From: a virus
DNA length: 64,000 nt
Reading direction: 5' to 3' (one strand)
Virus record (IMG/VR): IMGVR_UViG_3300017963_000235
Coordinates: 20,682-84,681 of that record
Of the stretch, positions 1,010 through 36,262 are shown piece by piece (the stretch's first letter is position 1; each line of letters begins with the position of its first letter). The translations under genes and the position numbers were made by a program. The notes below the pieces were generated by a model. The model was not told where the DNA came from. It saw only the letters and a list, made by a program, of their open reading frames with translations, and did no database searches.

Positions 1010-1076
1010 CTCTTTTTCTGTTGACAATAAATTAGAGATGGGGTAGAACTAGATTAGTGAGGCAATGACGCCTCAC
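1010..1076 (+). promoter_or_regulatory. Early sigma70-type promoter P1 with 5' leader hairpin
   Basis: T-rich UP tract, TTGACA (1021-1026), 17 nt spacer, TAGAAC, then the hairpin GTGAGGC-AATGAC-GCCTCAC. Motif is shared with P2 and P3. Confidence 0.75.
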
Positions 1077-1095: not shown

Positions 1096-1377
1096 ATGAA
1101 CCCTACTAAAAGCCACACTCAGAGAGCCTGCATCAAGATGAGAAATAACGAACCTATGACTTCCATGGAAAAATCCCTTGTTGCGCTTAAGGCTACTCCT
1201 GTGGTTACGGAATCCGGTAAACTGTGTGTCTCTGTGGCCTTCAACGATGGGGAGCCCCTGGTTAAAGATTATGTGGTTATAACTAGTCTCGGATCCGTCA
1301 ACCTGTATCTTAGGGTGGGTTCTGTTCGGGTTGATTGGGATAAGGGCGTTACTATCTGTAGTGTGTATCAGGATTAG
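1096..1377 (+). CDS. Hypothetical early protein
   Basis: AAGGAG RBS upstream; directly follows P1. Confidence 0.6.
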   Translation: MNPTKSHTQRACIKMRNNEPMTSMEKSLVALKATPVVTESGKLCVSVAFNDGEPLVKDYVVITSLGSVNLYLRVGSVRVDWDKGVTICSVYQD

Positions 1378-1387
1378 GGGGTTCATT

Positions 1388-1675
1388 GTGTTTCCATCGG
1401 CTACAACTTACTGGACTATGATAGTCCCCAAGATTAGGGTTAGAGCTAAGGGCTGCTGTGAAGAATGCGGCAGGAAAGATTTCCTATGGGTGACAGCTAA
1501 GAAGGATTTAGAGGATTGGGAGTACCTGGAGATAACAGGTGTGCAGCCTTTACCCTTGGAGAAGTCGAATCTTATAGCGGTATGTTATCGGTGTGCTGGC
1601 CCCTTCCTTGTGATCGCTGAGCTCTATCAGGCGTCTAAAAAGAAGTATTATCAAAGGGAGTTACAATTTGATTAA
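1388..1675 (+). CDS. HNH-like zinc-binding protein (degenerate)
   Basis: CCEECG ... SNLIAVCYRC matches the CxxC/NL..LCxxC frame of phage HNH proteins; catalytic His not evident. GTG start after AGGGGG is inferred. Confidence 0.45.
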   Translation: MFPSATTYWTMIVPKIRVRAKGCCEECGRKDFLWVTAKKDLEDWEYLEITGVQPLPLEKSNLIAVCYRCAGPFLVIAELYQASKKKYYQRELQFD

Positions 1676-1679
1676 CTTA

Positions 1680-1750
1680 TTTTTCTTTTTTCTCTTGACA
1701 ATATTTCTCTATGTTCTATAACTATAAGTAGTGAGGCAATGACGCAGCAC
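1680..1750 (+). promoter_or_regulatory. Early promoter P2
   Basis: TTTTTCTCTTGACA (TTGACA 1695-1700) ... TATAACTATAAGTAGTGAGGCAATGACGC, nearly identical to P1 and P3. Confidence 0.75.
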
Positions 1751-1771
1751 TAACCCCAAAGGAGACCTAAC

Positions 1772-2146
1772 ATGACACCTTCCAAATTCAACATCACCAA
1801 TGATAAATTTTCCTCTGACTCTGCTATTGTGACTTTCGATGAGTTCATTGAGCTCTGTGAGTCCCTGGATTGGGAGCCTGAGATGGTCCGCGAGGGCAAC
1901 AACGAGCACGGCGAATGGAGTCTCATGCACGGTGACGAGTGCGTAGGCCCCGAAATCTGTTCAGAGAATAACCTGTATCTGGTTAACGGATACGCTGGGG
2001 AGTGGGATGATGCGGTTATTGAGGCCGCTAGTGGGTACGCTGCTGCTAGAGAATACGCAGACAATTTCCCATCTATAGACCCCGCATGGCATAAGATGCG
2101 CCTTAGTGTTAACGGGTGCCTGGTGGAGATTCCTGTTAATAACTAA
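1772..2146 (+). CDS. Hypothetical acidic early protein
   Basis: AAAGGAG RBS; follows P2. Confidence 0.65.
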   Translation: MTPSKFNITNDKFSSDSAIVTFDEFIELCESLDWEPEMVREGNNEHGEWSLMHGDECVGPEICSENNLYLVNGYAGEWDDAVIEAASGYAAAREYADNFPSIDPAWHKMRLSVNGCLVEIPVNN

Positions 2147-2150
2147 CATA

Positions 2151-2187
2151 TACCCCACGCGGCGATTACGTATCAAAGCGTGGGGAC
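2151..2187 (+). repeat. Structured element copy A (8-bp stem, loop GGCGATTACGTATCAAA)
   Basis: CCCCACGC pairs with GCGTGGGG. The loop matches copies B and C while the stem sequence differs. Confidence 0.7.
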
Positions 2188-2275
2188 AACGTACACCGGG
2201 TAAGCTCTGAAAGGTTCCTGTGAATATTCTAGACCACAGTATAGCTTAGTAAGGTTGGCTGCTATTAACGGTGCT

Positions 2276-2328
2276 ACCCCATGGAGGCGATCACGTTCAA
2301 ATCCATGGGACAGCCGCAATAAAGCGGA
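2276..2328 (+). repeat. Structured element copy B (53 bp; inverted repeat of 35824-35876)
   Basis: ACCCCATGGAGGCGATCACGTTCAAATCCATGGGACAGCCGCAATAAAGCGGA; 52/53 identical to the reverse complement of 35824-35876. Confidence 0.95.
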
Positions 2329-2349
2329 GTGTTTAAAGGAGATCGATTA

Positions 2350-2661
2350 ATGACTAAAGCCCAGATACTTAAACAACTCACAGATGCCGGTATTGAGACA
2401 TCTCAGGTGAATCCTGTCGCCCTTAGGTACAATTCTCACAAAGGAGTGTGGGAGTCCATGAAAAATTATCCTAAGATTAAAATCGTCAATAATACCGTTG
2501 AGGTTGTGGTTACCGATAAGTACGGCGAGTGTGATATAGATGCTACAAACGATCTTATGGACCTGGTGAAGGATGCATTAGCAAGTAGCGCGACTTGGGA
2601 CCCCTACACTAGAGTGTATAAGGTTCCTGCTTGTAGAATGTGGGAAGTTTGTTCTTTTTAG
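2350..2661 (+). CDS. Hypothetical early protein
   Basis: AAAGGAG RBS before the ATG at 2350, directly after element B. Confidence 0.6.
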   Translation: MTKAQILKQLTDAGIETSQVNPVALRYNSHKGVWESMKNYPKIKIVNNTVEVVVTDKYGECDIDATNDLMDLVKDALASSATWDPYTRVYKVPACRMWEVCSF

Positions 2662-2677
2662 ATTAGTTTAAAATTTC

Positions 2678-3041
2678 GGGCGTGAAATAGATTCGACATG
2701 GAAAGAGAGGATACTGATTGCACCCAAGAGAAGCGTGAGGCTCTTGTAAAACTCCACGTACCTAAATAATTCAGAACGATGAATTAAAACAAGCTGCCGC
2801 TTAGGTAGCCTCCCTAGAGTTGATTCCTGCTAGATTCTAGGGAGACATTAGCGGGATAGTGGATCAGAAAGACCTGGTAGGCGTTACACCTCTGAGACAC
2901 GATAAAAGATCGCTTTGTTGTCTACCGGGAGATTGAGTTTGTTCGTTCGTAAATCTCCTACCAACACAAACGGACTATGGTGTAACGAGTCAGTATATTA
3001 TTTTTCCGTGGACACCGGGGCAGTACCGGTCACGTCCACCA
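2678..3041 (+). ncRNA. ssrA: tmRNA, one-piece; tag (A)QNDELKQAAA* at 2772-2804
   Basis: Acceptor stem GGGCGTG/CACGTCC with G3-U and encoded ACCA; GATTCGAC D-loop analogue; long P2 pairing (CATGGAAAGA/TTTTTCCGTG, ATACTGATT/AGTCAGTAT, GCACC/GGTGT); pk1 CAAGAG/CTCTTG; tag ORF ending in AA-stop inside a hairpin; T-stem ACCGG/CCGGT. Confidence 0.95.
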
Positions 3042-3043
3042 TT

Positions 3044-3217
3044 GATAGGGTTAGTTGCTATGTGTCCTAGGGATTAGACTTACCTCCTTTAGTCTCCCTT
3101 GGAGAGCAACCTAACGATTACAGTTTCCTCATTCCTGGGTCATTGACTGTAATTGTTTGAGATGAGCAAGAATACACTTTGCTGGTCTAAGGATTCGCGT
3201 CCCTGCCCTATCTCAAA
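3044..3217 (+). ncRNA. Candidate structured small RNA with anti-SD loop
   Basis: Three consecutive stem-loops in non-coding DNA; loop TACCTCCTTT at 3081-3090. Confidence 0.4.
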
Positions 3218-3268
3218 TTTCTCTTGAAACTATTTCGAGAGTGGTTATCTTTTCAATAGGAGATCGTA

Positions 3269-3436
3269 ATGTTGCTTTTATTAACCCTCATCATAGCAAT
3301 TCTAAACTGCTCTAGAGCTGTTGTGATATTCTTCCTTAACGCTGGGGGTATGTTCTACTCCATGAAGGAAGCTATAGGGCTCACTTCAACCAAACCCAAA
3401 TGCTCTTTTAGAGTCTACAAGGAAGGCTTTCCTTAG
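3269..3436 (+). CDS. Small hydrophobic protein, 55 aa (not in the ORF track)
   Basis: AGGAG RBS, ATG at 3269, MLLLLTLIIAILNCSRAVVIFFLNAGG..., TAG at 3434-3436; TTGAAA...TATCTT promoter-like sequence upstream. Confidence 0.5.
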   Translation: MLLLLTLIIAILNCSRAVVIFFLNAGGMFYSMKEAIGLTSTKPKCSFRVYKEGFP

Positions 3437-3445
3437 ATGCTATAT

Positions 3446-3668
3446 CGGGGTGTTAGCGTGAGCAGTCGTTAACCTCCCGCCCAAAACATCCAAACCCATA
3501 GCTTCGGTAACGGGGTTATGGGTGGCGTATACAAAGTGTGGTTCCCATGATGAAGGATCAAAACCGCACCGTTTGCCCGCGTGAAGGGTGTAAGAAAATC
3601 CAGATGACCCAGTTAGAATAGCGTTATGAGGTTATCAGGTCGTCCTAGGGTATGACGAAAACTACCCT
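3446..3668 (+). ncRNA. Candidate structured RNA (hairpin array) upstream of tRNAs
   Basis: At least five hairpins in 220 nt, including a 13-bp stem with a GTAA tetraloop (3494-3523). Confidence 0.35.
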
Positions 3669-3672
3669 TTAT

Positions 3673-3746
3673 CGGAGTATAGCTCAGTCTGGTAGAGTAC
3701 TCGGTTTGGGGCCGAGATGTCGTGGGTTCGGATCCCACTACTCCGA
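3673..3746 (+). tRNA. tRNA-Pro(UGG)
   Basis: CGGAGTA/TACTCCG acceptor stem; anticodon arm CTCGG-TTTGGGG-CCGAG; T-arm GTGGG-TTCGGAT-CCCAC; CCA not encoded. Confidence 0.93.
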
Positions 3747-3751
3747 CACTA

Positions 3752-3835
3752 GCCCGAATGGCGAAATTGGTAGACGCGACAGACTTAAAATCTGTTAAGA
3801 GAAATCTTGTATCGGTTCGATTCCGATTTCGGGCA
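3752..3835 (+). tRNA. tRNA-Leu(UAA)
   Basis: GCCCGAA/TTCGGGC acceptor stem; anticodon arm ACAGA-CTTAAAA-TCTGT; long variable arm AAGA-GAAA-TCTT; CCA not encoded. Confidence 0.95.
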
Positions 3836-3872
3836 CTGTGTTATCGTCAGCACTTAACGGTGGAGGCGTCTA

Positions 3873-3900
3873 GGGCGAGGAGACTCGCCCATTTTTTTTT
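3873..3900 (+). terminator. Rho-independent terminator
   Basis: GGGCGAG-GAGA-CTCGCCC followed by A and T9. Confidence 0.85.
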
Positions 3901-3915
3901 ACATGGAGGATCGTC

Positions 3916-4137
3916 ATGCTCACAACTATTTGGGTTAAAGAGTTAATAAAAGGCAAAGATACACCATTGAATCATGGGTCATTCGATGTCCCGTTTATCC
4001 CACACAAAGGGGATTACGTATTTTTAAAGATGCACGTTAAAGGGGGCATGGGGCGGTACGAGGTTATTTCTAGATATTGGACTGAGAATTTCACAGCTTG
4101 TACTTTAGTTGTGGTGTTTCTTGACGAAGTGAAATAA
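3916..4137 (+). CDS. Hypothetical protein
   Basis: GGAGG RBS, 73 aa. Confidence 0.6.
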   Translation: MLTTIWVKELIKGKDTPLNHGSFDVPFIPHKGDYVFLKMHVKGGMGRYEVISRYWTENFTACTLVVVFLDEVK

Positions 4138-4151
4138 ATCAATTCAGGCAT

Positions 4152-4194
4152 TAGACAAAATACAGGGGATCCGATAACGTAACAGTAATTACTG
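4152..4194 (+). promoter_or_regulatory. Promoter of the structural operon, with ACAGGGGATCC spacer motif and palindrome
   Basis: TAGACA-17 nt-TAACGT; spacer motif shared with 62463-62491; perfect palindrome CAGTAATTACTG at 4183-4194. Confidence 0.55.
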
Positions 4195-4207
4195 GAGAGT
4201 TATCGGT

Positions 4208-23682: not shown

Positions 23683-24159
23683 ATGGTAAGCTCTACTATA
23701 GCACAAGTTGTTTTAGCCATTGCTGGTGCGGTTGCAACGGGAGTTGTTGGCGTTATAGTTTTTCGCTATAAGCGAGGCGTAACCAAAGAAGATATAGAAA
23801 GCGGTAGGGAAGAAGATCGTCTAAAGGATCTTGAAAAAAAAATCGAGGTGATTCCAGCATTAACACAAAAGTTGACTAACCTTGAAAAAACAATTCCAAA
23901 TTTAGTTAAGAAGACAGATTTAGACGTATTACAAAAAGAGATACAGTCTGGATTTATCAAGCTTAATGGGGCCGTAGAAGAGATTCGAGAGGATTCAGAA
24001 TCGTTTGTTGGTGAAATTCCTGACAAATATCAGACTAAAGAAATGTGTCAGCAAAATGTTAAGGCTATGTTGAGTACAGTAAAACGTACCGAAGATGATG
24101 TAAAATATGTGCGTGGTAGAATAGATACTCTTGCTGATCATTTAATGGAGAAGAAATAA
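23683..24159 (+). CDS. Membrane-anchored coiled-coil protein (possible holin/spanin-like)
   Basis: Single N-terminal TM helix, then a long coiled coil. Confidence 0.5.
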   Translation: MVSSTIAQVVLAIAGAVATGVVGVIVFRYKRGVTKEDIESGREEDRLKDLEKKIEVIPALTQKLTNLEKTIPNLVKKTDLDVLQKEIQSGFIKLNGAVEEIREDSESFVGEIPDKYQTKEMCQQNVKAMLSTVKRTEDDVKYVRGRIDTLADHLMEKK

Positions 24160-24917
24160 TGTCACGAAGTGATTGGGCTATAATGACAGGATCAACTGAT
24201 GGTACTGGCTGGGGTGGTACTACCATTTTACGTAATGCAACTTTTGGAAACCCAAACCCACCTCCGGGCGGGGGTAATGCTTTATTCGCCTTTAATTCTG
24301 TGGAGCCTATTGTCGGTTCTGTTGGGGTATACACTGCGGTATCTGGTTTCAATCCTCTCCCTAAGGGGGGTCAAATAACCGGAGTAGTCCAGAGAGGCAC
24401 ATCGGGAGGTAATACCGGATTTTCTGTGGCCCTGGTTCTTGGGGCCTCCGGATCTAATGTAGGGGATAAAGCGTATTTATTAGGACTAGAGGATCAAACT
24501 CCTGGGCGTATTGTTCTCGCTAAAGGTCCCGTTAGTGGTGGTATACCGAACAACAATAATCAACCTGCTACTAAAATACTCAGAACCAGCCAAAGAACGG
24601 TTGCCCAAAATGAATATGTACATCTCAGAATGGATATGATTGTACAAGATTCTGGGGATGTTGTTATTAAGTGTTATGAGAATGATCTCAATGCGCATCC
24701 GTTAGACAATCCCGGATCGTGGGTATGGGTTCCTATCCCCTTTGATGATGGTTTCTCTGGTGAGTTTGGGGATGGTGAATTTATTGATGATGTAGTAGGG
24801 GTTAATAGTGGATCTGTTCCGCTCACATCCGGTTTTGCTGGGTTTGGGTTCGAGTGTTCCGAGACCGCTAGGAGGGCTTACGTAGATCACATAAGCATCG
24901 TAGCACAAGGTAATTAA
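24159..24917 (+). CDS. Virion structural protein (beta-rich)
   Basis: Gly-rich, lectin-like beta sequence in the tail cluster. Confidence 0.55.
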   Translation: MSRSDWAIMTGSTDGTGWGGTTILRNATFGNPNPPPGGGNALFAFNSVEPIVGSVGVYTAVSGFNPLPKGGQITGVVQRGTSGGNTGFSVALVLGASGSNVGDKAYLLGLEDQTPGRIVLAKGPVSGGIPNNNNQPATKILRTSQRTVAQNEYVHLRMDMIVQDSGDVVIKCYENDLNAHPLDNPGSWVWVPIPFDDGFSGEFGDGEFIDDVVGVNSGSVPLTSGFAGFGFECSETARRAYVDHISIVAQGN

Positions 24918-24918
24918 C

Positions 24919-27459
24919 ATGGCTGATCTTCTATGGCAGAATAAGGGAAGCGCTACGGGGAGAGTGCCTAGACCTGATGGATATGCTATCGGATCTGGGG
25001 ATTGGATGATGGCATTGGGGCCAGATCCTAGTGCTGCACTTCCTGTTGTTGGGGTCGAGTTTGTAATAGATTCTGTAACGTATGAGGAGAAGTTTGGGTG
25101 GGTATCAGGGGACTTCTATACGGTATCTCAGAGTGTAGATTTTACATCTCTCAATGAGATAACATATCAGGCCATTGGGGGATCTAAAAGCGCTCCTCTA
25201 CCTCTTAATTTGGTGTGGCGTTTGAGGGTCTTTATTGACGGGGTGTTATTCTATAACCGGGACTTTACAGATTCTAGGGAAGTTACTGTAAAGGATAGCG
25301 TTATTCCTGTTAGAATGCTATCCGGAACTAAGGATCTTTCATTCGGACTAACCCTTATTGACATTACTGAAACATCCGATTTCCCTTTGCCTGTTTCGTT
25401 CGCCTATCAATTAGACGATAACGATGCGTCGACTGTAGTTAAAGATAGTAATGAGAATTATAGAGATGGTGTGGCCTCAGTTAACACATCTGCAATAAGC
25501 GCAAACGGTAAATTTGGGTTAGCATTTCTAGTTGACGGTTCTCAATCTATATTCTTCGATGATTTAATCGGAGAGTTAATTTCTCCGTTGAATGATTGGT
25601 ACTTATCCTTATGGTTTAAACCAAACGCTGTAAGCGACGAGATTATAGCGTCATCGGTCAATGACGATGGTAAAGGTTTTTTTATTGAGAAAAAATCCGA
25701 TGGAACTATTGAGACAGGATTTAGAATCGGATCTGTATTGTCCCAGAATCTAAAAGCGTATTTTTCTCTCGAAGACAATACAGCAACTACGGATGTCGTA
25801 GACGCTACCGGTAATTTTACAGCTACAGCAAATAAAAATACAAACCTACTCCATGATGCGTCAGGTAAAGTAGGATCATGCTTTAATTTCTCGGGGAGCT
25901 CCACTGATAATTTTAGCTGTCAATTCGAAACAACGCCGGGAGACACTTTAGCCCACGATAAAGAGTGGTGTTTTGGTTTCTGGTTTTATAACCCTGGAAC
26001 ATCGGGGATTAAAGGACTTATTGGCAATGTTCCGGCAGCTGCATATCCAGGTTTTTACGCATATCTTAACGGGGCATCTCAATTAATATTTAGGGTAAGA
26101 CAAAGTGTCACACAATATAGGACAGTTATAGCGTCTGGGATCTCCCCCGGCTGGCATCACGCCTTACTAGGTCAAGACACCACTAATTCGGGTGGAGGTA
26201 CATTTGTTTTCATAGACACTATAAAGACCACAGGAACACAAACCGGAAGCATTATGACATCTATAGCAACGACTAATCCTGTGATATTCGGAGATACAGC
26301 ACCCCATAGCGGGTTCACATCTCGTATGGATGAAGTTTCTTTTTATGACACAACCCCAACTCTTTCTATGGCTACGGCGTTATTCAATGGTGGTGACGGT
26401 CTTTCCTATGCCGAAGTGATGGCGGCACGAGCGCTGTGGAAAACGACAAATATCTATACCGCAGGGGTATGGAACCATCTATTATGCACCTTAGATAGTG
26501 GCTCTGGGGTTGCGGGTATTAAGGCTTTCCTTAATGGGGTGGAGAACGGGAGTTACACTAATGATGATGTTAGCGTGGATTACACTTATAGAGGTGATTT
26601 CAGTTTACTTAAGGATTTAAGTGGATTTCTTACCGATGGTTATTCTGGGGTTGTAGATCAGTTACTAATAGGGGACGATGTTGCAGATGTTACGGATGCA
26701 TCTGACATCTATAACAACAGCCCAGAATATAAACGCCTAGATATCTTCCCCGCATCTATGGATGCTCTAACCAGAGGATGCATAGCTTCGTATCCGTGTA
26801 ATGATAACGCAATAAATGCAGATGTTACAGATACTCTTAATGGGCTTACAGGTACAGCAACCCAAAACACAGATCAATTAGCAGATGCCGGTCTGATCGG
26901 CGGTAGTTTTAGGTTCGAGAGCTCCAGTACTGATAATGTTAATACCCCTTTGGAATCGGTATCTGGAGAGTTCTTCCAAATAGGTAGGAGATTTTCGACT
27001 GTCTTAGCTATAACCCCATCTGCGCCTGGGGGCTTTCAACAAGGTTTCTGGGGCAACTCTACATCCACATCTGTGAAAGGTCTGAGATACGCTGTAGGAG
27101 CGGGGAAACTCCGTTTGAACATTAATCAAGACGGCTCTAATTATATATCATTGGAGACTGCTTTAACATGTTTCCCAACGGCAGATGACACGTATATCGT
27201 ATCCGTGGAGTATAAAGGGGGTGATCCCACCTCCGATTGGGTAGTTACAGTGAATGGGGCGAATCACACTTTAGGGATCATAAGTCAAGCTGGAACGGTT
27301 TCTGACATTGCCATGAGTTCTATTTTATTCGGGTCTATCAGTGGGGATCCTACGCGATATGGTGGGAATATTGAACTGTGTCACAATTACAGAAGGCTCC
27401 TTAGTACTGGGGATAAGATGCAATTATATAATGACTTGAAAGGTCTGCTACTACAATGA
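24919..27459 (+). CDS. Tail protein with multiple LamG/ConA-like domains
   Basis: Three repeats of ..Y.L.DN.A...V.D...G.FG..F.F; SLWFKP, WHH, WNHL and MDEV.FY motifs. Confidence 0.75.
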   Translation: MADLLWQNKGSATGRVPRPDGYAIGSGDWMMALGPDPSAALPVVGVEFVIDSVTYEEKFGWVSGDFYTVSQSVDFTSLNEITYQAIGGSKSAPLPLNLVWRLRVFIDGVLFYNRDFTDSREVTVKDSVIPVRMLSGTKDLSFGLTLIDITETSDFPLPVSFAYQLDDNDASTVVKDSNENYRDGVASVNTSAISANGKFGLAFLVDGSQSIFFDDLIGELISPLNDWYLSLWFKPNAVSDEIIASSVNDDGKGFFIEKKSDGTIETGFRIGSVLSQNLKAYFSLEDNTATTDVVDATGNFTATANKNTNLLHDASGKVGSCFNFSGSSTDNFSCQFETTPGDTLAHDKEWCFGFWFYNPGTSGIKGLIGNVPAAAYPGFYAYLNGASQLIFRVRQSVTQYRTVIASGISPGWHHALLGQDTTNSGGGTFVFIDTIKTTGTQTGSIMTSIATTNPVIFGDTAPHSGFTSRMDEVSFYDTTPTLSMATALFNGGDGLSYAEVMAARALWKTTNIYTAGVWNHLLCTLDSGSGVAGIKAFLNGVENGSYTNDDVSVDYTYRGDFSLLKDLSGFLTDGYSGVVDQLLIGDDVADVTDASDIYNNSPEYKRLDIFPASMDALTRGCIASYPCNDNAINADVTDTLNGLTGTATQNTDQLADAGLIGGSFRFESSSTDNVNTPLESVSGEFFQIGRRFSTVLAITPSAPGGFQQGFWGNSTSTSVKGLRYAVGAGKLRLNINQDGSNYISLETALTCFPTADDTYIVSVEYKGGDPTSDWVVTVNGANHTLGIISQAGTVSDIAMSSILFGSISGDPTRYGGNIELCHNYRRLLSTGDKMQLYNDLKGLLLQ

Positions 27460-29357
27460 CAGAGTATTTAGCTCCTTATGTCAATTTGGATTCAGTAGGG
27501 GATCAGACATCTTCAATTCCTGTGATATGTAATAGAATTCCTGAACCAAATGAAACGGGTGTAAGTTCCTCCAACTCTATCCAATTTGATTTATGGAACC
27601 CTACAGGTATAGGGTTTAAATTAGATACCCTTCAAGTCACGGCTAATACACTTCCGGCAATTGTTGACGGAGTTATTCAAGCCCCGTTTTCGGGGTCTAT
27701 AAGCGGGACGTATCAGGATTCATGGGTTCGAGTTATTTTGTCAGGAGTATCGTGGGAGTCTTTATCCAATGTCAATATAGACATAGAAATAGATACTTGG
27801 GATGGCTTTTCTATTAGCGATTCATATCTGTATGTAATAGCGGATGAAACTGCTCCTGAGGTTTATTCGGCAACCGCTACACATAGATCCACAATTAGAA
27901 TTGTCTATGCTCAGAGTGTTATTGATCCAGATGCTACTTCCGTGATAGCAACCTTCCCCTGGGGGGGCGAGTCTCTCGCCTATGATTCCTCGTTAAGTTC
28001 CTGGGTGCTCAGCCCCTTAGCGTACCCTTACTTAAGGTCTACTATTACAGAGCCGTATACGTTAGCAGAGGGGACTATTCTGGGGTTAATCATTAATGGT
28101 GCGGAGCACTTGATAGCAATACCCGCACTATCAGGAACCACTGCGGTTGCTGTGGCCTCTGATTTGAACTCTGTATTAGCCTCCATCGGCGCCTCTGCTA
28201 TTGCCTATAATAACCGTTTGTATATACGCAACGCGGATCCTACAGGCACTATTGAGGTGATTAATAGAGGAGCCCAAGCGATACTCAAACTTGAGTCAGG
28301 GATCCAATACGCCCGATTACCTTTTGGAACCCCTGAGGGAACGTATTCAATCTCAACTAAAGCTACGTTCGCGTCTGGCGTTGTGGAGTTCCAGACAGTT
28401 TCTCTTGAGCTACTCAATTCTATAGAGACTCTTAGATTGATAGATTTTGGTTTAGTGATGGGAGATTCTGCGCTAGTTGCGGGTAATTACGTGATCACAA
28501 TAGATCCGTTTATTGTGGCGTATGAGATAAGACCTACATGGATACCTACTGTAGAGTCTGTGACTAAAATATCTGATAACACATATGATTTAGTTTTAGA
28601 CACAGATATGACACCGCAGGGGCCGTATATTCTCACTGTATTTAATGTCTACGATGCGTCTGGTAATTTGGTCAGTTCTGATCACGATTCGGTAACATAT
28701 AGAGGATTCTCTCCCCAAACCCCCACTAGAAGACAGTTTGATTTATTCAGAATGCAACCCCTATATAATAGGCAGGAGGATCAATCGTATGGGTCCACTT
28801 TGCTTAAATTTATGCGGGTTCTTCAGGAGGTTGAGGATCAATTACTTGCGGATATGGATGAGTATACTGGAATCTTCAATTTAGATAATGCACCGGATTG
28901 GTTTATAGAGGCCTTCTTAAGTAGTCATGGATCCCCGTTTGATTTTATGCCTATTGATGTAACCAAGAAACGGCAGTTATCCGCTATCCTGGTTGATCTC
29001 TTGCGAATACGTGCAACTAATCCTGGGATAGAAGCGGCACTTAAATTTTTCTTTGGATTCACAACTGTATCTATAACGTCTGCGTGGGGTTTGGGCTGGT
29101 TGCTCGGTGATTCAATCCGATCTATTTTAGGCACATCGACTGTGCTTAACTCCTCCGATAGACGAGATAAATTTACTATTATAGTAGAGGTAGATCGGGA
29201 CCTCACAGAAGACGAGTTATGGCAGGTTAAACGGGTTATCGAAGTTATGAAGCCCGATCACATACACTATGATTTAAGGCAACCGGAAGCGCCTTTTGTT
29301 CCCAATCATTGGCAACTAGGGTATAGTGTTCTTGGGACAAATACTATCGTTCACTAG
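27456..29357 (+). CDS. Baseplate wedge protein (P2 gpI-like C-terminus) with Ig-like N-terminal domains
   Basis: APDWFIEAFL, RATNPGIEAALKFFFG and MKP.H motifs. Confidence 0.7.
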   Translation: MTEYLAPYVNLDSVGDQTSSIPVICNRIPEPNETGVSSSNSIQFDLWNPTGIGFKLDTLQVTANTLPAIVDGVIQAPFSGSISGTYQDSWVRVILSGVSWESLSNVNIDIEIDTWDGFSISDSYLYVIADETAPEVYSATATHRSTIRIVYAQSVIDPDATSVIATFPWGGESLAYDSSLSSWVLSPLAYPYLRSTITEPYTLAEGTILGLIINGAEHLIAIPALSGTTAVAVASDLNSVLASIGASAIAYNNRLYIRNADPTGTIEVINRGAQAILKLESGIQYARLPFGTPEGTYSISTKATFASGVVEFQTVSLELLNSIETLRLIDFGLVMGDSALVAGNYVITIDPFIVAYEIRPTWIPTVESVTKISDNTYDLVLDTDMTPQGPYILTVFNVYDASGNLVSSDHDSVTYRGFSPQTPTRRQFDLFRMQPLYNRQEDQSYGSTLLKFMRVLQEVEDQLLADMDEYTGIFNLDNAPDWFIEAFLSSHGSPFDFMPIDVTKKRQLSAILVDLLRIRATNPGIEAALKFFFGFTTVSITSAWGLGWLLGDSIRSILGTSTVLNSSDRRDKFTIIVEVDRDLTEDELWQVKRVIEVMKPDHIHYDLRQPEAPFVPNHWQLGYSVLGTNTIVH

Positions 29358-29366
29358 GAGAATAGT

Positions 29367-31274
29367 ATGAATAGAGTTAATTATTTTGATGGTATGTTGG
29401 TTGCCGAGGGCGATCTTAATACTCCCTTTACATATGCTGAGAATGCAGAAAGAAACTTATCTCTTGAATTAGGGGAAGTTGGCGTTCTGACCGGGTTGAA
29501 TGTTAGCCCAACAAGTCCTGTATCCTCTTCGGTAGATGTGAGTACTGGATCCGGTAGAATCAAAGACGATGGAGCCCGGGTTAGAGTGGACTCTGTACAG
29601 ACGGTACCTTGCAATCAGACTACTAGCGGGGACCCCACATATTCTGATTTAGTTGCTGGAGAAGGACGATGGGTGTCCTTTTACATTAAGTTTAAAAGAG
29701 AGTATTCGGATCAAAGAACCCCTGAGGGTGGGGGTGTTCCCGTTTATTTTAAGGAAACAGAATCCTACGAGTTTCAGATTAATAATGGAACAAAAGGACT
29801 TATTGCAGATAAAGACACGCTTGCTAAAGCAGGTACCTTAACTACTGCGTTATTGTTAGCAGATATTTGGTTTGAGTCTGGGAGTGGTAATATTGACCTT
29901 GCCGATTTGGATGTGACACGTAGAGAAGACTATATGAGGGAAACCATCAGCGGAACTCAGCAAGTTTTTGGTAATCCAAATGATACATTGGTATATTTAA
30001 TGGGACGCATAGAGGCTATCTTTTCCTCTGTTACGGGAAGTAGTGGGGCATCTCTTATTGGGTTGGGGGGTACTGATACTGAGGCGACTTTCCTGTGGCA
30101 GATTGGAAAACACCTATCCGCTACTTCGAACAATGTAGAGGCGGCTATCTCGAAAATAGTGTTAGACCTAGGAAATAGCAGAGCTCAAACTGTAGACGGG
30201 GCTGATTTAATTTCTGCGGTAGCAAGTGCCCCTAACTGGTTCACGGATCCTTTATCGGATCCGGGGGGAGGCGGAAGTTACGATGGTACAGTGGGATCCT
30301 TTCTTAATAATATCATAGCGGATCTCGCATCCGCAAAAGGGTCAGAATGTATTGGCTCACAAGCTGTAGCGGGATCTCCGTACTCTTTAACTTCTGAAGC
30401 TGTGTATACTCAAATATCAAGTATCCTTAGTGACTTAAATACCCATGTAAATACGGGAGGACATCCCGCAACTGCTATTTCTCATGATCCAACAACTAGT
30501 ACGTGGGCCGATGCTTCTACATTAGGGGCCGCTAACGGTGGGGTTAGATGGAATGATCTATTGGACGCACTAGCGGCTACAGGGACGGGAACTTCGAGCC
30601 CTGCCGGAATAAAGAAAATAGGCACTACTCTTGTGAATGGTACTTATGATGGTGATACAATATCCATCGGGGGTTCACAAAATCTATATGCCTTCCTTAC
30701 GGAATTAGTGGAAGCCGTAGCGAGAAGAATTGATGTAACAGGTGACTCTAGAATTACAGGTAATCTAATACCAAAAGCCGGATTTAATCCGGATTTGGGA
30801 TCTGTCTCTAATAGGTTTGATGCCGCGTACCTTAAGGGGCGGTTATATTTCAACTCAGCCGAGAATATTGAAAATAGACAAATATCGGCGTTACTAGGCT
30901 CCTGTGATCCAGGAGCTAATCTAGCCTTCAATAACGCAGGATATGTTACCAGTGGTGCGGTATCTCAGAGCCTATTTTTTCCTCTAGATTACCTAAAGGA
31001 TTCGGATGCGTTATCCTCTGTGGAGGTGGAATGGAATCCTAATAGCTCATCATCAATGGATTTGTACATTTATAAAATGGCGGATGGAGGATCACGAACG
31101 CAGGTTGCTAGACTGACATCTTCTATAACAGCTAGAGGATCGGAATCTGTAGTCTTAGGTCCTGAAAGCATGGCTTCAAATACTTCATATTGGATTGAGG
31201 TTGTGTTTAATGACGCGAATGATGTTCTTTATAAAGTTCGACCAAAACGGATCACCAGACAATTACCTGGTTAA
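29367..31274 (+). CDS. Tail fibre protein
   Basis: MNRVNYFDG.LV...DL N-terminus, GVLTGL.V, repeated GA..IG motifs, DLGS.SNRF knob motif. Confidence 0.7.
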   Translation: MNRVNYFDGMLVAEGDLNTPFTYAENAERNLSLELGEVGVLTGLNVSPTSPVSSSVDVSTGSGRIKDDGARVRVDSVQTVPCNQTTSGDPTYSDLVAGEGRWVSFYIKFKREYSDQRTPEGGGVPVYFKETESYEFQINNGTKGLIADKDTLAKAGTLTTALLLADIWFESGSGNIDLADLDVTRREDYMRETISGTQQVFGNPNDTLVYLMGRIEAIFSSVTGSSGASLIGLGGTDTEATFLWQIGKHLSATSNNVEAAISKIVLDLGNSRAQTVDGADLISAVASAPNWFTDPLSDPGGGGSYDGTVGSFLNNIIADLASAKGSECIGSQAVAGSPYSLTSEAVYTQISSILSDLNTHVNTGGHPATAISHDPTTSTWADASTLGAANGGVRWNDLLDALAATGTGTSSPAGIKKIGTTLVNGTYDGDTISIGGSQNLYAFLTELVEAVARRIDVTGDSRITGNLIPKAGFNPDLGSVSNRFDAAYLKGRLYFNSAENIENRQISALLGSCDPGANLAFNNAGYVTSGAVSQSLFFPLDYLKDSDALSSVEVEWNPNSSSSMDLYIYKMADGGSRTQVARLTSSITARGSESVVLGPESMASNTSYWIEVVFNDANDVLYKVRPKRITRQLPG

Positions 31275-35551: not shown

Positions 35552-35803
35552 CTAGGCAGGGTTAATGCGTCTGGTGAAGTCTTCACCTTCGCCGTCAGAG
35601 GTCCAGATAGTGACGAAACCTTTTGGAGGGTTTTCCTTGAGCAGTTTTGAGTGAGCTGCTCTAGCTTCGTATCCGTCTTTGTGAGTAGAGATGACAGCCC
35701 CACTGAAGAAAGATACGGATTCAAGATTGAGATCTCCATTTCTGTTTCTACGAAGTTTGTGGGTTTCTTTTGCGTAGGTCTCGTTGATAATTCCAAAAAG
35801 CAT
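35552..35803 (-). CDS. Hypothetical protein (83 aa)
   Basis: AAAGGAG RBS before the ATG at 35803, directly after element C. Confidence 0.6.
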   Translation of the reverse strand: MLFGIINETYAKETHKLRRNRNGDLNLESVSFFSGAVISTHKDGYEARAAHSKLLKENPPKGFVTIWTSDGEGEDFTRRINPA

Positions 35804-35823
35804 ATTGAGCTCCTTTGATTGTT

Positions 35824-35876
35824 TCCGCTTTATTGCGGCGGTCCCATGGATTTGAACGTGATCGCCTCCATGGGGT
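35824..35876 (-). repeat. Structured element copy C (inverted repeat of 2276-2328)
   Basis: Reverse complement is ACCCCATGGAGGCGATCACGTTCAAATCCATGGGACCGCCGCAATAAAGCGGA. Confidence 0.95.
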
Positions 35877-35885
35877 GGGCTTGGG

Positions 35886-36158
35886 CTAGTCTCGGGTGTT
35901 GGGGATGGCGTCGGATTCCTTTTCCGCCTCCATTCGCTGTGAAATCTTATAGAGATCGCTTTTTCTATAGCGCGCCTCCCGTATTTTCCAACATCTCTTG
36001 CTCCGCCAAAACGCGATTTTTCTAGAAATGATTGGATGCGCATGCCTCCATAACGCGCCAATGAAAAGCGGAATAACAACCACGGGCCATGGCCAATGGA
36101 TGCTGCCAGATACTCTTAATGTAGCAAGCACGATGAAGATAATTACGGTGACTGACAT
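35886..36158 (-). CDS. Small two-TM membrane protein
   Basis: IFIVLATLRVSGSIHWPWPVVVIPLFI matches the phage LKL.G.I.WSWWWV..P membrane-protein pattern. Confidence 0.65.
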   Translation of the reverse strand: MSVTVIIFIVLATLRVSGSIHWPWPVVVIPLFIGALWRHAHPIISRKIAFWRSKRCWKIREARYRKSDLYKISQRMEAEKESDAIPNTRD

Positions 36159-36203: not shown

Positions 36204-36262
36204 GCCTCACTACCTATAGTTATACTCCCCTCCGTTTTGTTGTCAAGAGAAAAAAGGAAAAT
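36204..36262 (-). promoter_or_regulatory. Early promoter P3
   Basis: Minus strand reads TTTTCCTTTTTTCTCTTGACAA...TATAACTATAGGTAGTGAGGC, matching P2. Confidence 0.8.

What the first reader, a model, noticed from the sequence alone, without database searches (positions are those of the whole stretch)
2151..2328. Novel repeated structured element: conserved loop GGCGATYACGT(A)TCAAA on a covarying 8-bp stem
Seen: copy A is taCCCCACGC-ggcgattacgtatcaaa-GCGTGGGGac (2151-2187). Copy B is tacCCCATGGA-ggcgatcacgttcaaa-TCCATGGGac (2275-2311). Copy C, at 35841-35876 on the minus strand, is the same as B. The loop is conserved while the stem sequence is exchanged with pairing intact, which is the hallmark of a functional RNA or ssDNA structure. 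B and C are followed by a second small hairpin, CCGC-AATAAA-GCGG (boxB-like), then an AAAGGAG RBS. I recognise no family for it. Inference: a cis-acting antiterminator analogous to HK022 put or lambdoid nut sites in two early operons, an RNase III-type processing site, a protein-binding translational switch, or a hairpin recombination site.
Basis: partly seen in the sequence, partly recalled or inferred. Interest (0 to 1): 0.85.

Follow-up and report, generated by a model that had tools for sequence, protein, structure and literature searches.

The report
Conserved-loop RNA hairpin shared by phages
The three copies are real members of an uncatalogued small RNA hairpin found in a dozen unrelated uncultured phages, always with nearly the same 16-letter loop on freely changing stems, and its job, probably steering a host machine such as RNA polymerase on early phage transcripts, is still unproven.

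Summary
Observation confirmed. Hairpins A (2153-2185, +), B (2278-2309, +) and C (35843-35874, -) exist as described, and B and C are 52/53 identical.

The motif is not private to this phage. Loop-pattern scans of IMG/VR and JGI metagenomes found the same loop, GG(C/A)GAUCACGUUCAAA, on unrelated 7-9 bp stems. These lie in about 12 contig groups with G+C from 39 to 62 %, at 1-6 copies each, some as tandem arrays of 3-6. Among 120 exact-loop hits in bacterial and archaeal genomes, none has such a stem.

On 29 distinct copies, 8 stem pairs covary. The next-to-last pair is G-C in 28 of 29. G·U outnumbers C·A 17 to 6, which points to sense-strand RNA.

There is no Rfam 15 match, no tRNA call, no TIGR features and no shared phage protein.

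In this window both loci have the same layout: identical strong promoter, small gene, hairpin, RBS, small gene. The + locus continues into a tmRNA, two tRNAs and a strong terminator ahead of the tail genes.

Best guess (about 0.3) is a factor-independent, put-like element acting on host RNA polymerase. mRNA processing or stability is almost as likely. Function is untested.

The scan had noted this same stretch before. Other genomes gave analogous hairpin families with different loops.

The parts
2153..2185 (+). Hairpin A: P1 2153-2160 with 2178-2185 (8 bp), 17-nt loop 2161-2177 (GGCGAUUACGUAUCAAA). It starts 6 nt after the stop codon of ORF 1772-2146.
   Evidence: (MFE -18.8 kcal/mol, z -3.7)
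2278..2309 (+). Hairpin B: P1 2278-2285 with 2302-2309 (8 bp), 16-nt loop 2286-2301 (GGCGAUCACGUUCAAA). This is the family consensus loop.
2314..2327 (+). Small second hairpin CCGC-AAUAAA-GCGG, 4 nt after hairpin B. It is shared with locus C but is not a constant family feature.
2335..2352 (+). AAAGGAG ribosome-binding site (2335-2341) and ATG (2350-2352) of the 103-aa ORF 2350-2661.
35843..35874 (-). Hairpin C, identical to B. It starts 11 nt after the stop codon of ORF 35886-36158 (-).
35825..35838 (-). Small second hairpin CCGC-AAUAAA-GCGG after hairpin C. AAAGGAG follows at 35816-35810 and the ATG at 35803 opens the 83-aa ORF 35803-35552.
1695..1722 (+). Sigma-70-type promoter after a T-rich tract: TTGACA (1695-1700), 16-nt spacer, TATAAC (1717-1722). 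It lies about 430 nt upstream of hairpin A. The first transcribed bases (..tagtgaggc..) are shared with the - locus.
   Evidence: sequence match only; no transcription data
36219..36246 (-). Matching promoter on the - strand: TTGACA (36246-36241), 16-nt spacer, TATAAC (36224-36219). It lies about 350 nt upstream of hairpin C.
2678..3041 (+). Context: a phage tmRNA gene downstream of hairpins A/B on the same strand.
   Evidence: RF00023, 72.6 bits against a gathering score of 47, E 5.6e-28. It was missed by ARAGORN and by gathering-mode filters.
3673..3890 (+). Context: tRNA-Pro (3673-3747), tRNA-Leu (3752-3836) and a strong intrinsic terminator (3873-3890 plus a T9 run). The terminator lies 1.56 kb downstream of hairpin B and ahead of the about 30-kb tail module.

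Best explanation
The three copies belong to a widespread, uncatalogued phage RNA motif.

Anatomy: a sense-strand hairpin with a 7-9 bp stem of free sequence whose next-to-last pair is G-C. Above it sits a 3x3 internal loop (5'-N-G-M / A-A-W-3'), then an invariant two-pair helix (G-A with U-C), then a mostly UCACGU apical loop.

How it likely works: it is transcribed as part of early or middle operons. It presents its conserved loop to a partner that is the same in very different hosts, so the partner is a core host machine rather than a phage protein.

The mechanism I think most likely is that the nascent hairpin binds the transcribing host RNA polymerase. It would then make the polymerase resistant to pausing and termination, as the HK022 put RNA does, but with a smaller and unrelated RNA. 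Transcription started at particular early promoters could then run through untranslated RNA genes and terminators into downstream modules.

Shown: the structure, its spread, the strand, its placement and the absence of a shared phage protein. Inferred: the partner and the effect on transcription.
For: Structure and reality:
- On 29 distinct copies, 85.6 % of cells are paired against 54.6 % in shuffles and 30-46 % when the partner is slid. 9 of 10 stem pairs show double changes.
- RNAalifold gives the same P1+P2 on its own.
- Five of six single folds have z from -2.4 to -3.7.

Specific to phages:
- 0 of 120 exact-loop hits in cellular genomes carry a stem of 7 bp or more.
- By contrast, 10 of 97 IMG/VR stretches, 12 of 15 metagenome stretches and 10 of 23 occurrences of the GGAG loop variant carry a flanking stem. 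The last two of those 10 have only 5 bp.

RNA sense strand:
- G·U/U·G outnumber C·A/A·C 17 to 6 under a strand-neutral filter.
- The hairpin lies on the coding strand at every locus where flanking genes could be called.

Host rather than phage partner:
- phmmer all-against-all of 4,421 open frames from 15 contigs found no protein family in more than 3 of 13 lineages.
- The loop is unchanged in phages with 39-62 % G+C.

Placement that fits action on the polymerase:
- Both window loci lie 350-430 nt behind near-identical strong promoters, after the first small gene.
- The + locus is followed by about 1.2 kb of untranslated tmRNA and tRNA genes and a strong terminator ahead of the tail genes.
- In the L009/G011 group the hairpin sits 49-102 nt upstream of a strong intrinsic terminator, which is followed by a promoter and the packaging genes.
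- Same-strand terminators lie within 3 kb downstream at 5 of 17 loci and upstream at 0.
- The arrays of 3-6 copies lie in 0.5-0.8 kb untranslated stretches that are G-rich and C-poor (G 0.34-0.39, C 0.20-0.21). That is the composition expected to avoid Rho; this last link is an inference from established knowledge of rut sites.
- Put-type RNAs are known to need no phage protein and to sit downstream of the two early promoters (PMC9378689, passages read).
Against: - No transcription or termination data exist for any member.
- 12 of 17 loci have no predicted intrinsic terminator within 3 kb downstream.
- The operon behind hairpin C is only about 1 kb long and has none.
- The element is 30-34 nt, against about 70 nt and two obligatory stem-loops in put. 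The second hairpin is present in only 9 of 19 copies.
- The model R2 finds nothing in HK022 24,000-31,000: best 11 bits, against 33-53 bits for members. There is therefore no homology to lean on.
- In 7 of 12 lineages the first hairpin begins 4-13 nt after a stop codon. That placement fits an mRNA-end or processing signal equally well.
- Much of the loop's constancy is by construction, because members were found with exact-loop patterns.
Confidence: 0.3

Rival explanations
1. mRNA punctuation. The hairpin is a processing or stability signal. Either a conserved host ribonuclease (RNase P, E, Z or Y type) cuts beside it, or it caps a transcript end. This would set different lifetimes for the upstream and downstream cistrons, much as the T7 RNase III sites or protective end hairpins do.
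For: - The first hairpin starts 4-13 nt after the stop codon of a co-oriented ORF in 7 of 12 lineages, and 23-50 nt before the next start codon where there is one.
- In the window and in L324 it shares a transcription unit with tRNA or tmRNA genes, which must be processed.
- The loop contains the T-loop-like UUCAAA(U), and an exact copy of the 16-mer occurs inside a real phage tRNA.
- No phage partner protein was found.
Against: - There are only 1-6 copies per genome, in a single locus (two in the window phage). It is not found at most gene junctions, even in two complete genomes.
- Tandem arrays with no genes between copies make little sense as punctuation.
- There is no tRNA-like score and no T-stem pairing in most copies.
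- The helix is too short for RNase III.
Confidence: 0.25
2. Trans-acting RNA. The hairpin is the working part of a small RNA or decoy that soaks up or misleads a conserved host protein or defence nuclease. More copies would give more titration.
For: - Copy number varies from 1 to 6, with tandem arrays in long untranslated regions.
- In the L009/G011 group the hairpin lies in a 3' UTR just ahead of an intrinsic terminator, the layout of 3'-UTR-derived small RNAs.
- The loop is constant across host-diverse phages.
- It is absent from the cellular genomes sampled.
Against: - No promoter of its own was seen directly upstream, and most copies abut a stop codon.
- No target was identified.
- The best complementarity I noticed, to the 16S rRNA 5' region, is only 7 nt, rests on recall, and is lost in the 15-nt loop variants.
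Confidence: 0.12
3. RNA-only device. The conserved internal loop is a catalytic or ligand-binding core, either a new small self-cleaving ribozyme or a minimal aptamer. Its sequence would then be fixed by chemistry rather than by a host protein.
For: - It shows the pattern typical of ribozymes and aptamers: invariant unpaired nucleotides (G2, GA..UC, AA) held between helices of free sequence.
- It occurs in unrelated phages of different G+C with no shared protein.
- It forms tandem arrays.
- Known small ribozymes are common in phage intergenic regions (recalled, not checked here).
Against: - It is very small (30-34 nt) and has no third helix or pseudoknot partner that I could find.
- No Rfam ribozyme or riboswitch family matches, even at E<=10.
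- No expression platform is evident.
Confidence: 0.08
4. DNA-level hairpin. The inverted repeat acts as single-stranded or cruciform DNA, for example as a replication origin signal, a nicking site, or a recombination or inversion site.
For: - Each genome has a single locus, which would suit a unique site.
- Several copies lie next to replication or recombination genes: between an exonuclease and a Gp2.5-like SSB in one group, and about 1 kb from the DNA polymerase gene in the window.
- B and C form a 53-bp inverted repeat that brackets the 33.5-kb tail module.
Against: - G·U exceeds C·A 17 to 6. This fits RNA better than DNA.
- The orientation always follows the genes, including on both strands of the window.
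- No shared replication or recombination protein was found.
Confidence: 0.07
5. A guide-RNA array of the TIGR-Tas stem-loop type, or a neutral or selfish duplicated palindrome with no function.
For: Tandem stem-loop arrays with variable palindromic stems are known in phages as TIGR arrays (PMC12045711, sections 4, 9 and 24 read; bioRxiv 10.64898/2026.09.09.750476, sections 5, 7 and 11 read).
Against: Against TIGR:
- TIGR loops carry box C/D motifs and two variable 8-12-nt spacers. Here the loop is 15-17 nt and constant.
- No Nop-domain gene was found in 0 of 5 records searched, while the control search rang in 5 of 14 genomes.

Against neutrality:
- The loop is kept while the stems are replaced in about 12 lineages.
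Confidence: 0.03

Closest known systems
HK022 put RNAs (putL, putR)
   Same: Both are cis-acting nascent RNA. Both sit downstream of the two early promoters, one per operon. Put needs no phage protein and acts on a conserved part of host RNA polymerase (PMC9378689, passages read). Here there are two loci behind matching promoters and no shared phage protein.
   Different: Put is about 70 nt with two obligatory stem-loops and a triplex. This element is one 30-34-nt hairpin with an optional second hairpin. There is no detectable similarity: R2 finds nothing in the HK022 early region. No effect on termination is shown.
Lambda-type nut sites (boxA + boxB with N protein)
   Same: Both are small hairpin elements in early transcripts after the first gene. 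The second small hairpin (CCGC-AAUAAA-GCGG here; GCCG-GAAA-CGGC in another group) looks boxB-like.
   Different: I saw no boxA-like single-stranded box (consensus recalled). No N-like protein family is shared, and PHROGs gives no antiterminator hit for the neighbouring small proteins. nut hairpins co-vary with each phage's own N protein, whereas this loop is the same in unrelated phages.
TIGR-Tas stem-loop arrays
   Same: Both are tandem arrays of hairpins with variable palindromic stems in phage genomes (PMC12045711, section 9).
   Different: There are no box C/D motifs, no variable spacers in the loop and no Nop-domain protein.
PeSL (promoter-early stem-loop) cassettes of T4-type phages and T7 RNase III sites
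   Same: Both are repeated stem-loops between co-oriented early genes. This rests on recall and on the wording of an earlier scan note; I did not read the papers.
   Different: Those occur at many junctions per genome. This motif has 1-6 copies in one or two loci. Its helix is too short for RNase III, and its loop, not its stem, is the conserved part.
tRNA T-arm and tRNA-like punctuation elements
   Same: The loop ends in the T-loop-like UUCAAA(U). The exact 16-mer occurs in a real phage tRNA, covering the variable loop, the 5' T-stem and the T-loop. Two lineages have tRNA genes just downstream.
   Different: There is no T-stem partner in most copies and no ARAGORN or RF00005 signal. Most carrier phages have no tRNA genes nearby.

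Membership tests
Any Rfam 15 family | Covariance-model score at or above the gathering threshold, or at least a suggestive E-value | tested here: not met
   (whole window, gathering) found only two tRNAs. One search (2100-2400, E<=10) found only a chance RAGATH-5 hit on the other strand (13.7 bits against a threshold of 50). One search found nothing for the G011 locus.
tRNA / T-arm | Cloverleaf, or at least a 5-bp T-stem closing a 7-nt TTCRANY loop | tested here: not met
   ARAGORN calls no gene at the hairpins, and RF00005 is not listed at E<=10. By eye, a T-stem pairing is possible in only 2 copies (winA, G002 copy 4).
HK022 put | About 70-nt RNA of two stem-loops | tested here: not met
   The hairpin is 30-34 nt. 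A second hairpin within 6 nt is present in 9 of 19 copies, against 25 % at random positions.
HK022 put | [quoted passage not shown] | tested here: met
   For this window only: matching promoters lie 350-430 nt upstream of both loci. These are promoter predictions, not measurements.
HK022 put | Sequence or structure homology to putL/putR | tested here: not met
   R2 on HK022 24,000-31,000 with filters off scores at best 11 bits. That the put sites lie in this stretch is recalled; the record does not annotate them.
HK022 put | Suppresses termination without phage proteins through the beta' zinc-binding domain | not testable with these tools
   This needs transcription assays. The only related result is that no shared phage protein was found.
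Lambda nut | boxA, a boxB hairpin and a cognate N protein | tested here: inconclusive
   A boxB-like small hairpin is present in some lineages only. I saw no boxA (consensus recalled). No shared small protein was found, and there are no antiterminator PHROG hits.
TIGR-Tas stem-loop array | Loop holding box C, spacer A, linker, spacer B and box D, with variable 8-12-nt spacers | tested here: not met
   The loop is 15-17 nt and nearly constant in 29 copies. The definition comes from PMC12045711 sections 4 and 9.
TIGR-Tas stem-loop array | Adjacent Nop-domain Tas gene | tested here: not met
   PF01798 was found in 0 of 5 records (G000-G003, G005), while the control rang in 5 of 14 genomes. Divergent Tas proteins could escape Pfam.
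Intrinsic terminator | G+C-rich hairpin with a small loop followed by a U-tract | tested here: not met
   The loop is 15-17 nt and no T-run follows. The terminator scans do not list the hairpins.
RNase III site (T7 type) | About 20 bp of mostly double-stranded RNA | tested here: not met
   The helix is 8 bp plus 2 bp. The length requirement is recalled.

The most novel reading that the evidence does not exclude
A 30-34-nt hairpin that works with no phage protein, directly on a universally conserved host machine. It would be either the smallest known processive antiterminator RNA acting on RNA polymerase, or a new minimal self-cleaving or ligand-binding RNA. It has spread or been kept across unrelated phages of very different hosts, and in some it has been amplified into arrays.
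Probability: 0.2. Interest if true: 0.85.

Novelty: new variant of a known kind. Interest (0 to 1): 0.6.

Why it matters
If the partner is host RNA polymerase, or another core machine, this would be a portable, protein-free control module of about 32 nt. It would work across bacterial phyla, which makes it useful as a genetic part and as a probe of a conserved surface of that machine.

Even with its function unknown, it is a clean new RNA family. The loop is constant, 8 stem pairs covary, it is phage-specific, and it sometimes forms arrays. A covariance model is ready for database-wide searches and for Rfam.

It also adds to a pattern this scan keeps meeting: phage early operons marked by hairpins whose loops, not stems, are conserved. 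Here, unusually, the same loop is shared by unrelated phages.

Tried and rejected
- Near-identity searches of the two loci against cultured phages found nothing. The sheath protein has only remote hits of 22-29 % identity. The search for related loci with a neighbouring protein found no relatives, and with the G002 phrog_4652 protein found only itself. I therefore have no close relatives of the window phage in which to follow the element.
- A mini-helix C3-G10/G4-C9 inside the loop was considered. It is rejected because close relatives L250 and L332 differ C to A at position 3 with no change at position 10, and G002 copy 4 and G001 copy 1 break it.
- I weighed K-turn, UAA/GAN, loop-E, sigma-54, ECF promoter, IHF, ops/RfaH, boxA, SECIS, CsrA and 16S-complementarity readings by eye against recalled consensus sequences. 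None fitted all loop variants, and none was tested with a tool.
- phrog_4652, the gene upstream of the arrays in G001, G002 and G009, was considered as a partner. It is absent from G000 and from 5 other records, has no Pfam family, and has only hypothetical look-alikes in the Atlas.
- Sequencing runs: no RNA holder is listed. The two DNA holders are sediment and seawater metagenomes that may be the source itself.
- Read laying on 1200-4200: the Logan contigs break at the 36-nt repeat, which has roughly double depth. They say nothing for or against inversion between B and C.
- No paper in the held library contains the loop sequence (four spellings, matched anywhere).
- The open frame 35552-36079 (-) runs through hairpin C. 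I judged this to be chance, because copy B has an in-frame stop.
- False positives dropped before counts, each a loop match inside a coding frame or lacking a real stem: L045/L113, L087, L056, L245, L255, L253, L025, L013/L040. L045 was still in alignment A1 and model R1. It is not in A3 or R2.
Full report
**1. The observation**

Reading the window shows the three hairpins exactly as reported:
- A: CCCCACGC / GGCGATTACGTATCAAA / GCGTGGGG, 2153-2185, + strand.
- B: CCCATGGA / GGCGATCACGTTCAAA / TCCATGGG, 2278-2309, + strand.
- C: the same as B, 35843-35874, - strand.

The loop pattern occurs three times in the window, and none of 100 shuffles gave a match. It occurs three times in the whole 84,681-bp virus record that holds the window, with 0 for the reversed control.

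B and C are 52/53 identical over 2276-2328 against 35876-35824. That stretch includes a small CCGC-AATAAA-GCGG hairpin. Both are followed by AAAGGAG and an ATG.

The window belongs to an uncultured myovirus-like phage with sheath, tape measure, PolA and terminase genes. It has no close cultured relative. The two DNA runs that hold it are sediment and seawater metagenomes.

**2. Spread beyond this phage**

- IMG/VR, degenerate loop pattern: 97 stretches. That is about what chance predicts for a 16-mer, and most have no flanking complementarity. Ten stretches carry the loop on an inverted repeat of 6-9 bp with unrelated sequence: L032 (two copies), L010, L080, L067, L009, L083, L008, L076, L042 and L041.
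- JGI metagenomes, G-C-closed 20-mer: 15 stretches, 12 with the hairpin and 3 coding chance hits.
- IMG/VR, loop variant GGAGATCACGTTCAAA: 23 occurrences in 20 new stretches. Eight occurrences in five contigs have 8-9 bp stems and two have 5 bp.
- IMG/VR, 15-nt variant GGAGATCGCTTCAAA: one further phage among 61 new stretches.
None has a flanking stem of 7 bp or more, even when the loop is allowed to shift; the maximum is 6. With a looser core pattern, the same 120 loci give 140 core hits and again none with such a stem.

Some stem-bearing hits are coding coincidences and were dropped: L045/L113, L087 and L056.

I count about 12 contig groups that share neither stem sequence nor, where enough DNA was held, more than hallmark proteins:
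- the window phage;
- G001/G002/G009;
- G003;
- L067;
- the L009/L250/L257/L332 (=G011) group;
- the L083/L008/L076 group;
- L246;
- L252;
- L262 (=G012);
- L324;
- L333;
- L336 (=G010);
- and, more weakly, L328/L335.

Their G+C runs from 38.6 % to 62.1 %.

**3. Structure**

On 29 distinct copies (alignment A3) the named structure has 85.6 % of cells paired. Shuffles give 54.6 %, and sliding the partner gives 30-46 %. Nine of ten stem pairs show changes on both sides. RNAalifold predicts the same eight-pair P1 and a two-pair P2 without being told.

Single-sequence folds give the same picture:
- P1;
- a 3x3 internal loop, 5'-N-G-(C/A) opposite A-A-(A/U);
- P2, made of G-C and A-U pairs that never vary;
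- an apical loop that is UCACGU in most copies.

Two further details:
- The next-to-last P1 pair is G-C in 28 of 29 copies, so recognition reaches into the stem.
- Position 3 of the loop flips between C and A in close relatives without a partner change, which rules out the alternative inner helix I first considered.

Caveat: the members were found with exact-loop patterns, so the loop's constancy is partly by construction. The variation I know of comes from extra copies in arrays picked up by the covariance models.

**4. Strand and placement**

Under a strand-neutral filter (at least 6 of 8 Watson-Crick pairs), the non-Watson-Crick positions are G·U or U·G 17 times and C·A or A·C 6 times. This favours folding of the strand as written.

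That strand is the coding strand at every locus where flanking genes could be called. This includes both strands of the window.

The first or only hairpin begins 4-13 nt after the stop codon of a co-oriented ORF in 7 of 12 lineages. Where a gene follows, its start lies 23-50 nt downstream.

Model R2 finds only the known copies in 375,747 bases of carrier contigs, including two records rated complete. It finds only the three copies in the window. Copy number is therefore 1-6 per genome, in one locus (two in the window phage).

G002, G001 and G009 carry tandem arrays of 6, 3 and 5 copies spaced 84-141 nt apart. The arrays lie in 0.5-0.8 kb of untranslated DNA that is G-rich and C-poor, with GGCAAGG-like words.

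**5. Context in this window**

A note left by the first stage on the same genome pointed to promoters and to a tmRNA. I checked both.

- Promoters: both hairpin loci lie behind near-identical promoters, each a T-rich tract, TTGACA, 16 nt and TATAAC, followed by a shared ..tagtgaggc.. start. They are at 1695-1722 (+) and 36246-36219 (-).
- Layout: at both loci it is promoter, small gene, hairpin(s), RBS, small gene.
- Downstream on the + strand: a tmRNA gene at 2678-3041 scores 72.6 bits in Rfam's permissive mode. ARAGORN and the fast gathering run had missed it. It is followed by tRNA-Pro, tRNA-Leu and a strong terminator at 3873-3890, and then by the roughly 30-kb tail module.

In the complete G011 genome the single hairpin sits 4 nt after a small membrane-protein gene. 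About 100 nt further on lies a strong terminator, then a TTGACA-17-TATACT promoter and the HNH, terminase and portal genes.

In another group it lies between an exonuclease gene and a Gp2.5-like SSB gene.

**6. What it is not**

- No Rfam 15 family matches.
- It is not a tRNA, although the 16-mer occurs inside one real phage tRNA.
- It is not an intrinsic terminator.
- It is not a TIGR-Tas stem-loop array. Those loops hold box C/D motifs and two variable spacers (PMC12045711, sections 4, 9 and 24; bioRxiv 10.64898/2026.09.09.750476, sections 5, 7 and 11). No Nop-domain gene is present in 5 records.
- It is not detectably related to anything in the HK022 early region.
- No paper in the library holds the loop sequence.

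**7. Mechanism**

An all-against-all phmmer comparison covered 4,421 open frames from 15 carrier contigs. No protein family is present in more than 3 of 13 lineages. The nearly constant loop in phages of very different composition therefore points to a partner that is conserved in the hosts, or to an RNA-only activity.

I rank a put-like action on host RNA polymerase first, at about 0.3. The reasons:
- the promoter, first gene, hairpin layout at both window loci;
- the long untranslated tmRNA/tRNA stretch and terminator that follow on the + strand;
- the hairpin-then-terminator layout in the G011 group;
- the Rho-unfriendly composition of the arrays;
- the precedent that put needs no phage protein (PMC9378689, passages read).

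Against it:
- 12 of 17 loci have no predicted terminator within 3 kb downstream;
- the operon behind hairpin C is short;
- the element is half the size of put;
- the second hairpin is optional.

A processing or stability signal is nearly as likely, at 0.25. The stop-codon-hugging position and the tRNA/tmRNA company fit it. The low copy number and the gene-less arrays do not.

A trans-acting decoy (0.12), an RNA-only ribozyme or aptamer (0.08) and a DNA-level hairpin (0.07) remain possible.

**8. Novelty and verdict**

The element is real, widespread among uncultured phages, apparently absent from cellular genomes, and uncatalogued.

As a kind, a conserved-loop hairpin in phage early operons, it has relatives in nut, put and PeSL-type signals. 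The scan's own notes list several analogous families with other loops in other genomes. None of those shares this loop. What is unusual here is that one loop is shared by unrelated phages.

I rate it a new variant of a known kind, interest 0.6. Its function is open until termination, end-mapping and binding experiments are done.

Noticed in passing
window 2678-3041 (+): A phage-encoded tmRNA gene (RF00023, 72.6 bits, E 5.6e-28). It was found only with Rfam's permissive filters. ARAGORN and the gathering-mode run missed it.
   Followed up: partly
window 1021-1050, 1695-1722 (+) and 36246-36219 (-): A family of promoters with a T-rich tract, TTGACA and a 16-17-nt spacer. These three share the first transcribed bases (..tagtgaggc..). 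Three more of the type lie elsewhere in the record.
   Followed up: partly
window 2276-2328 and 35824-35876: A 53-bp inverted repeat (52/53 identical) brackets the 33.5-kb tail module and could support inversion. The Logan contigs break at the repeat, so this could not be tested.
   Followed up: partly
L012 6760-6834 (-): A phage tRNA that ARAGORN calls with a four-base anticodon (tttt) in an 8-nt loop. It happens to contain the exact 16-mer of the hairpin loop in its variable loop and T-arm.
   Followed up: no
L340 (G011) about 1075-1135, and the same place in L009, L257 and L250: A strongly conserved leader of about 55 nt (GGGGTCGGGATACGG...GCCCGCCCC) directly after the promoter of the packaging operon. 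No Rfam match.
   Followed up: partly
L111 2925-3560, L115 581-1070, L344 3270-4050: The hairpin arrays lie in G-rich, C-poor untranslated regions full of GGCAAGG, GGCTAGG and GTTCGGCA words. In G001, G002 and G009 a phrog_4652 gene of unknown function lies just upstream.
   Followed up: partly
L324 535-606 (+): A tRNA gene (called Ser, anticodon tga) lies 86 nt downstream of that contig's hairpin. It is the second lineage, after the window, with a tRNA next to the element.
   Followed up: no
window 35552-36079 (-): The reading frame of the 83-aa gene stays open for 92 codons upstream of its ATG. It runs through hairpin C and into the preceding gene. I judged this to be chance.
   Followed up: partly
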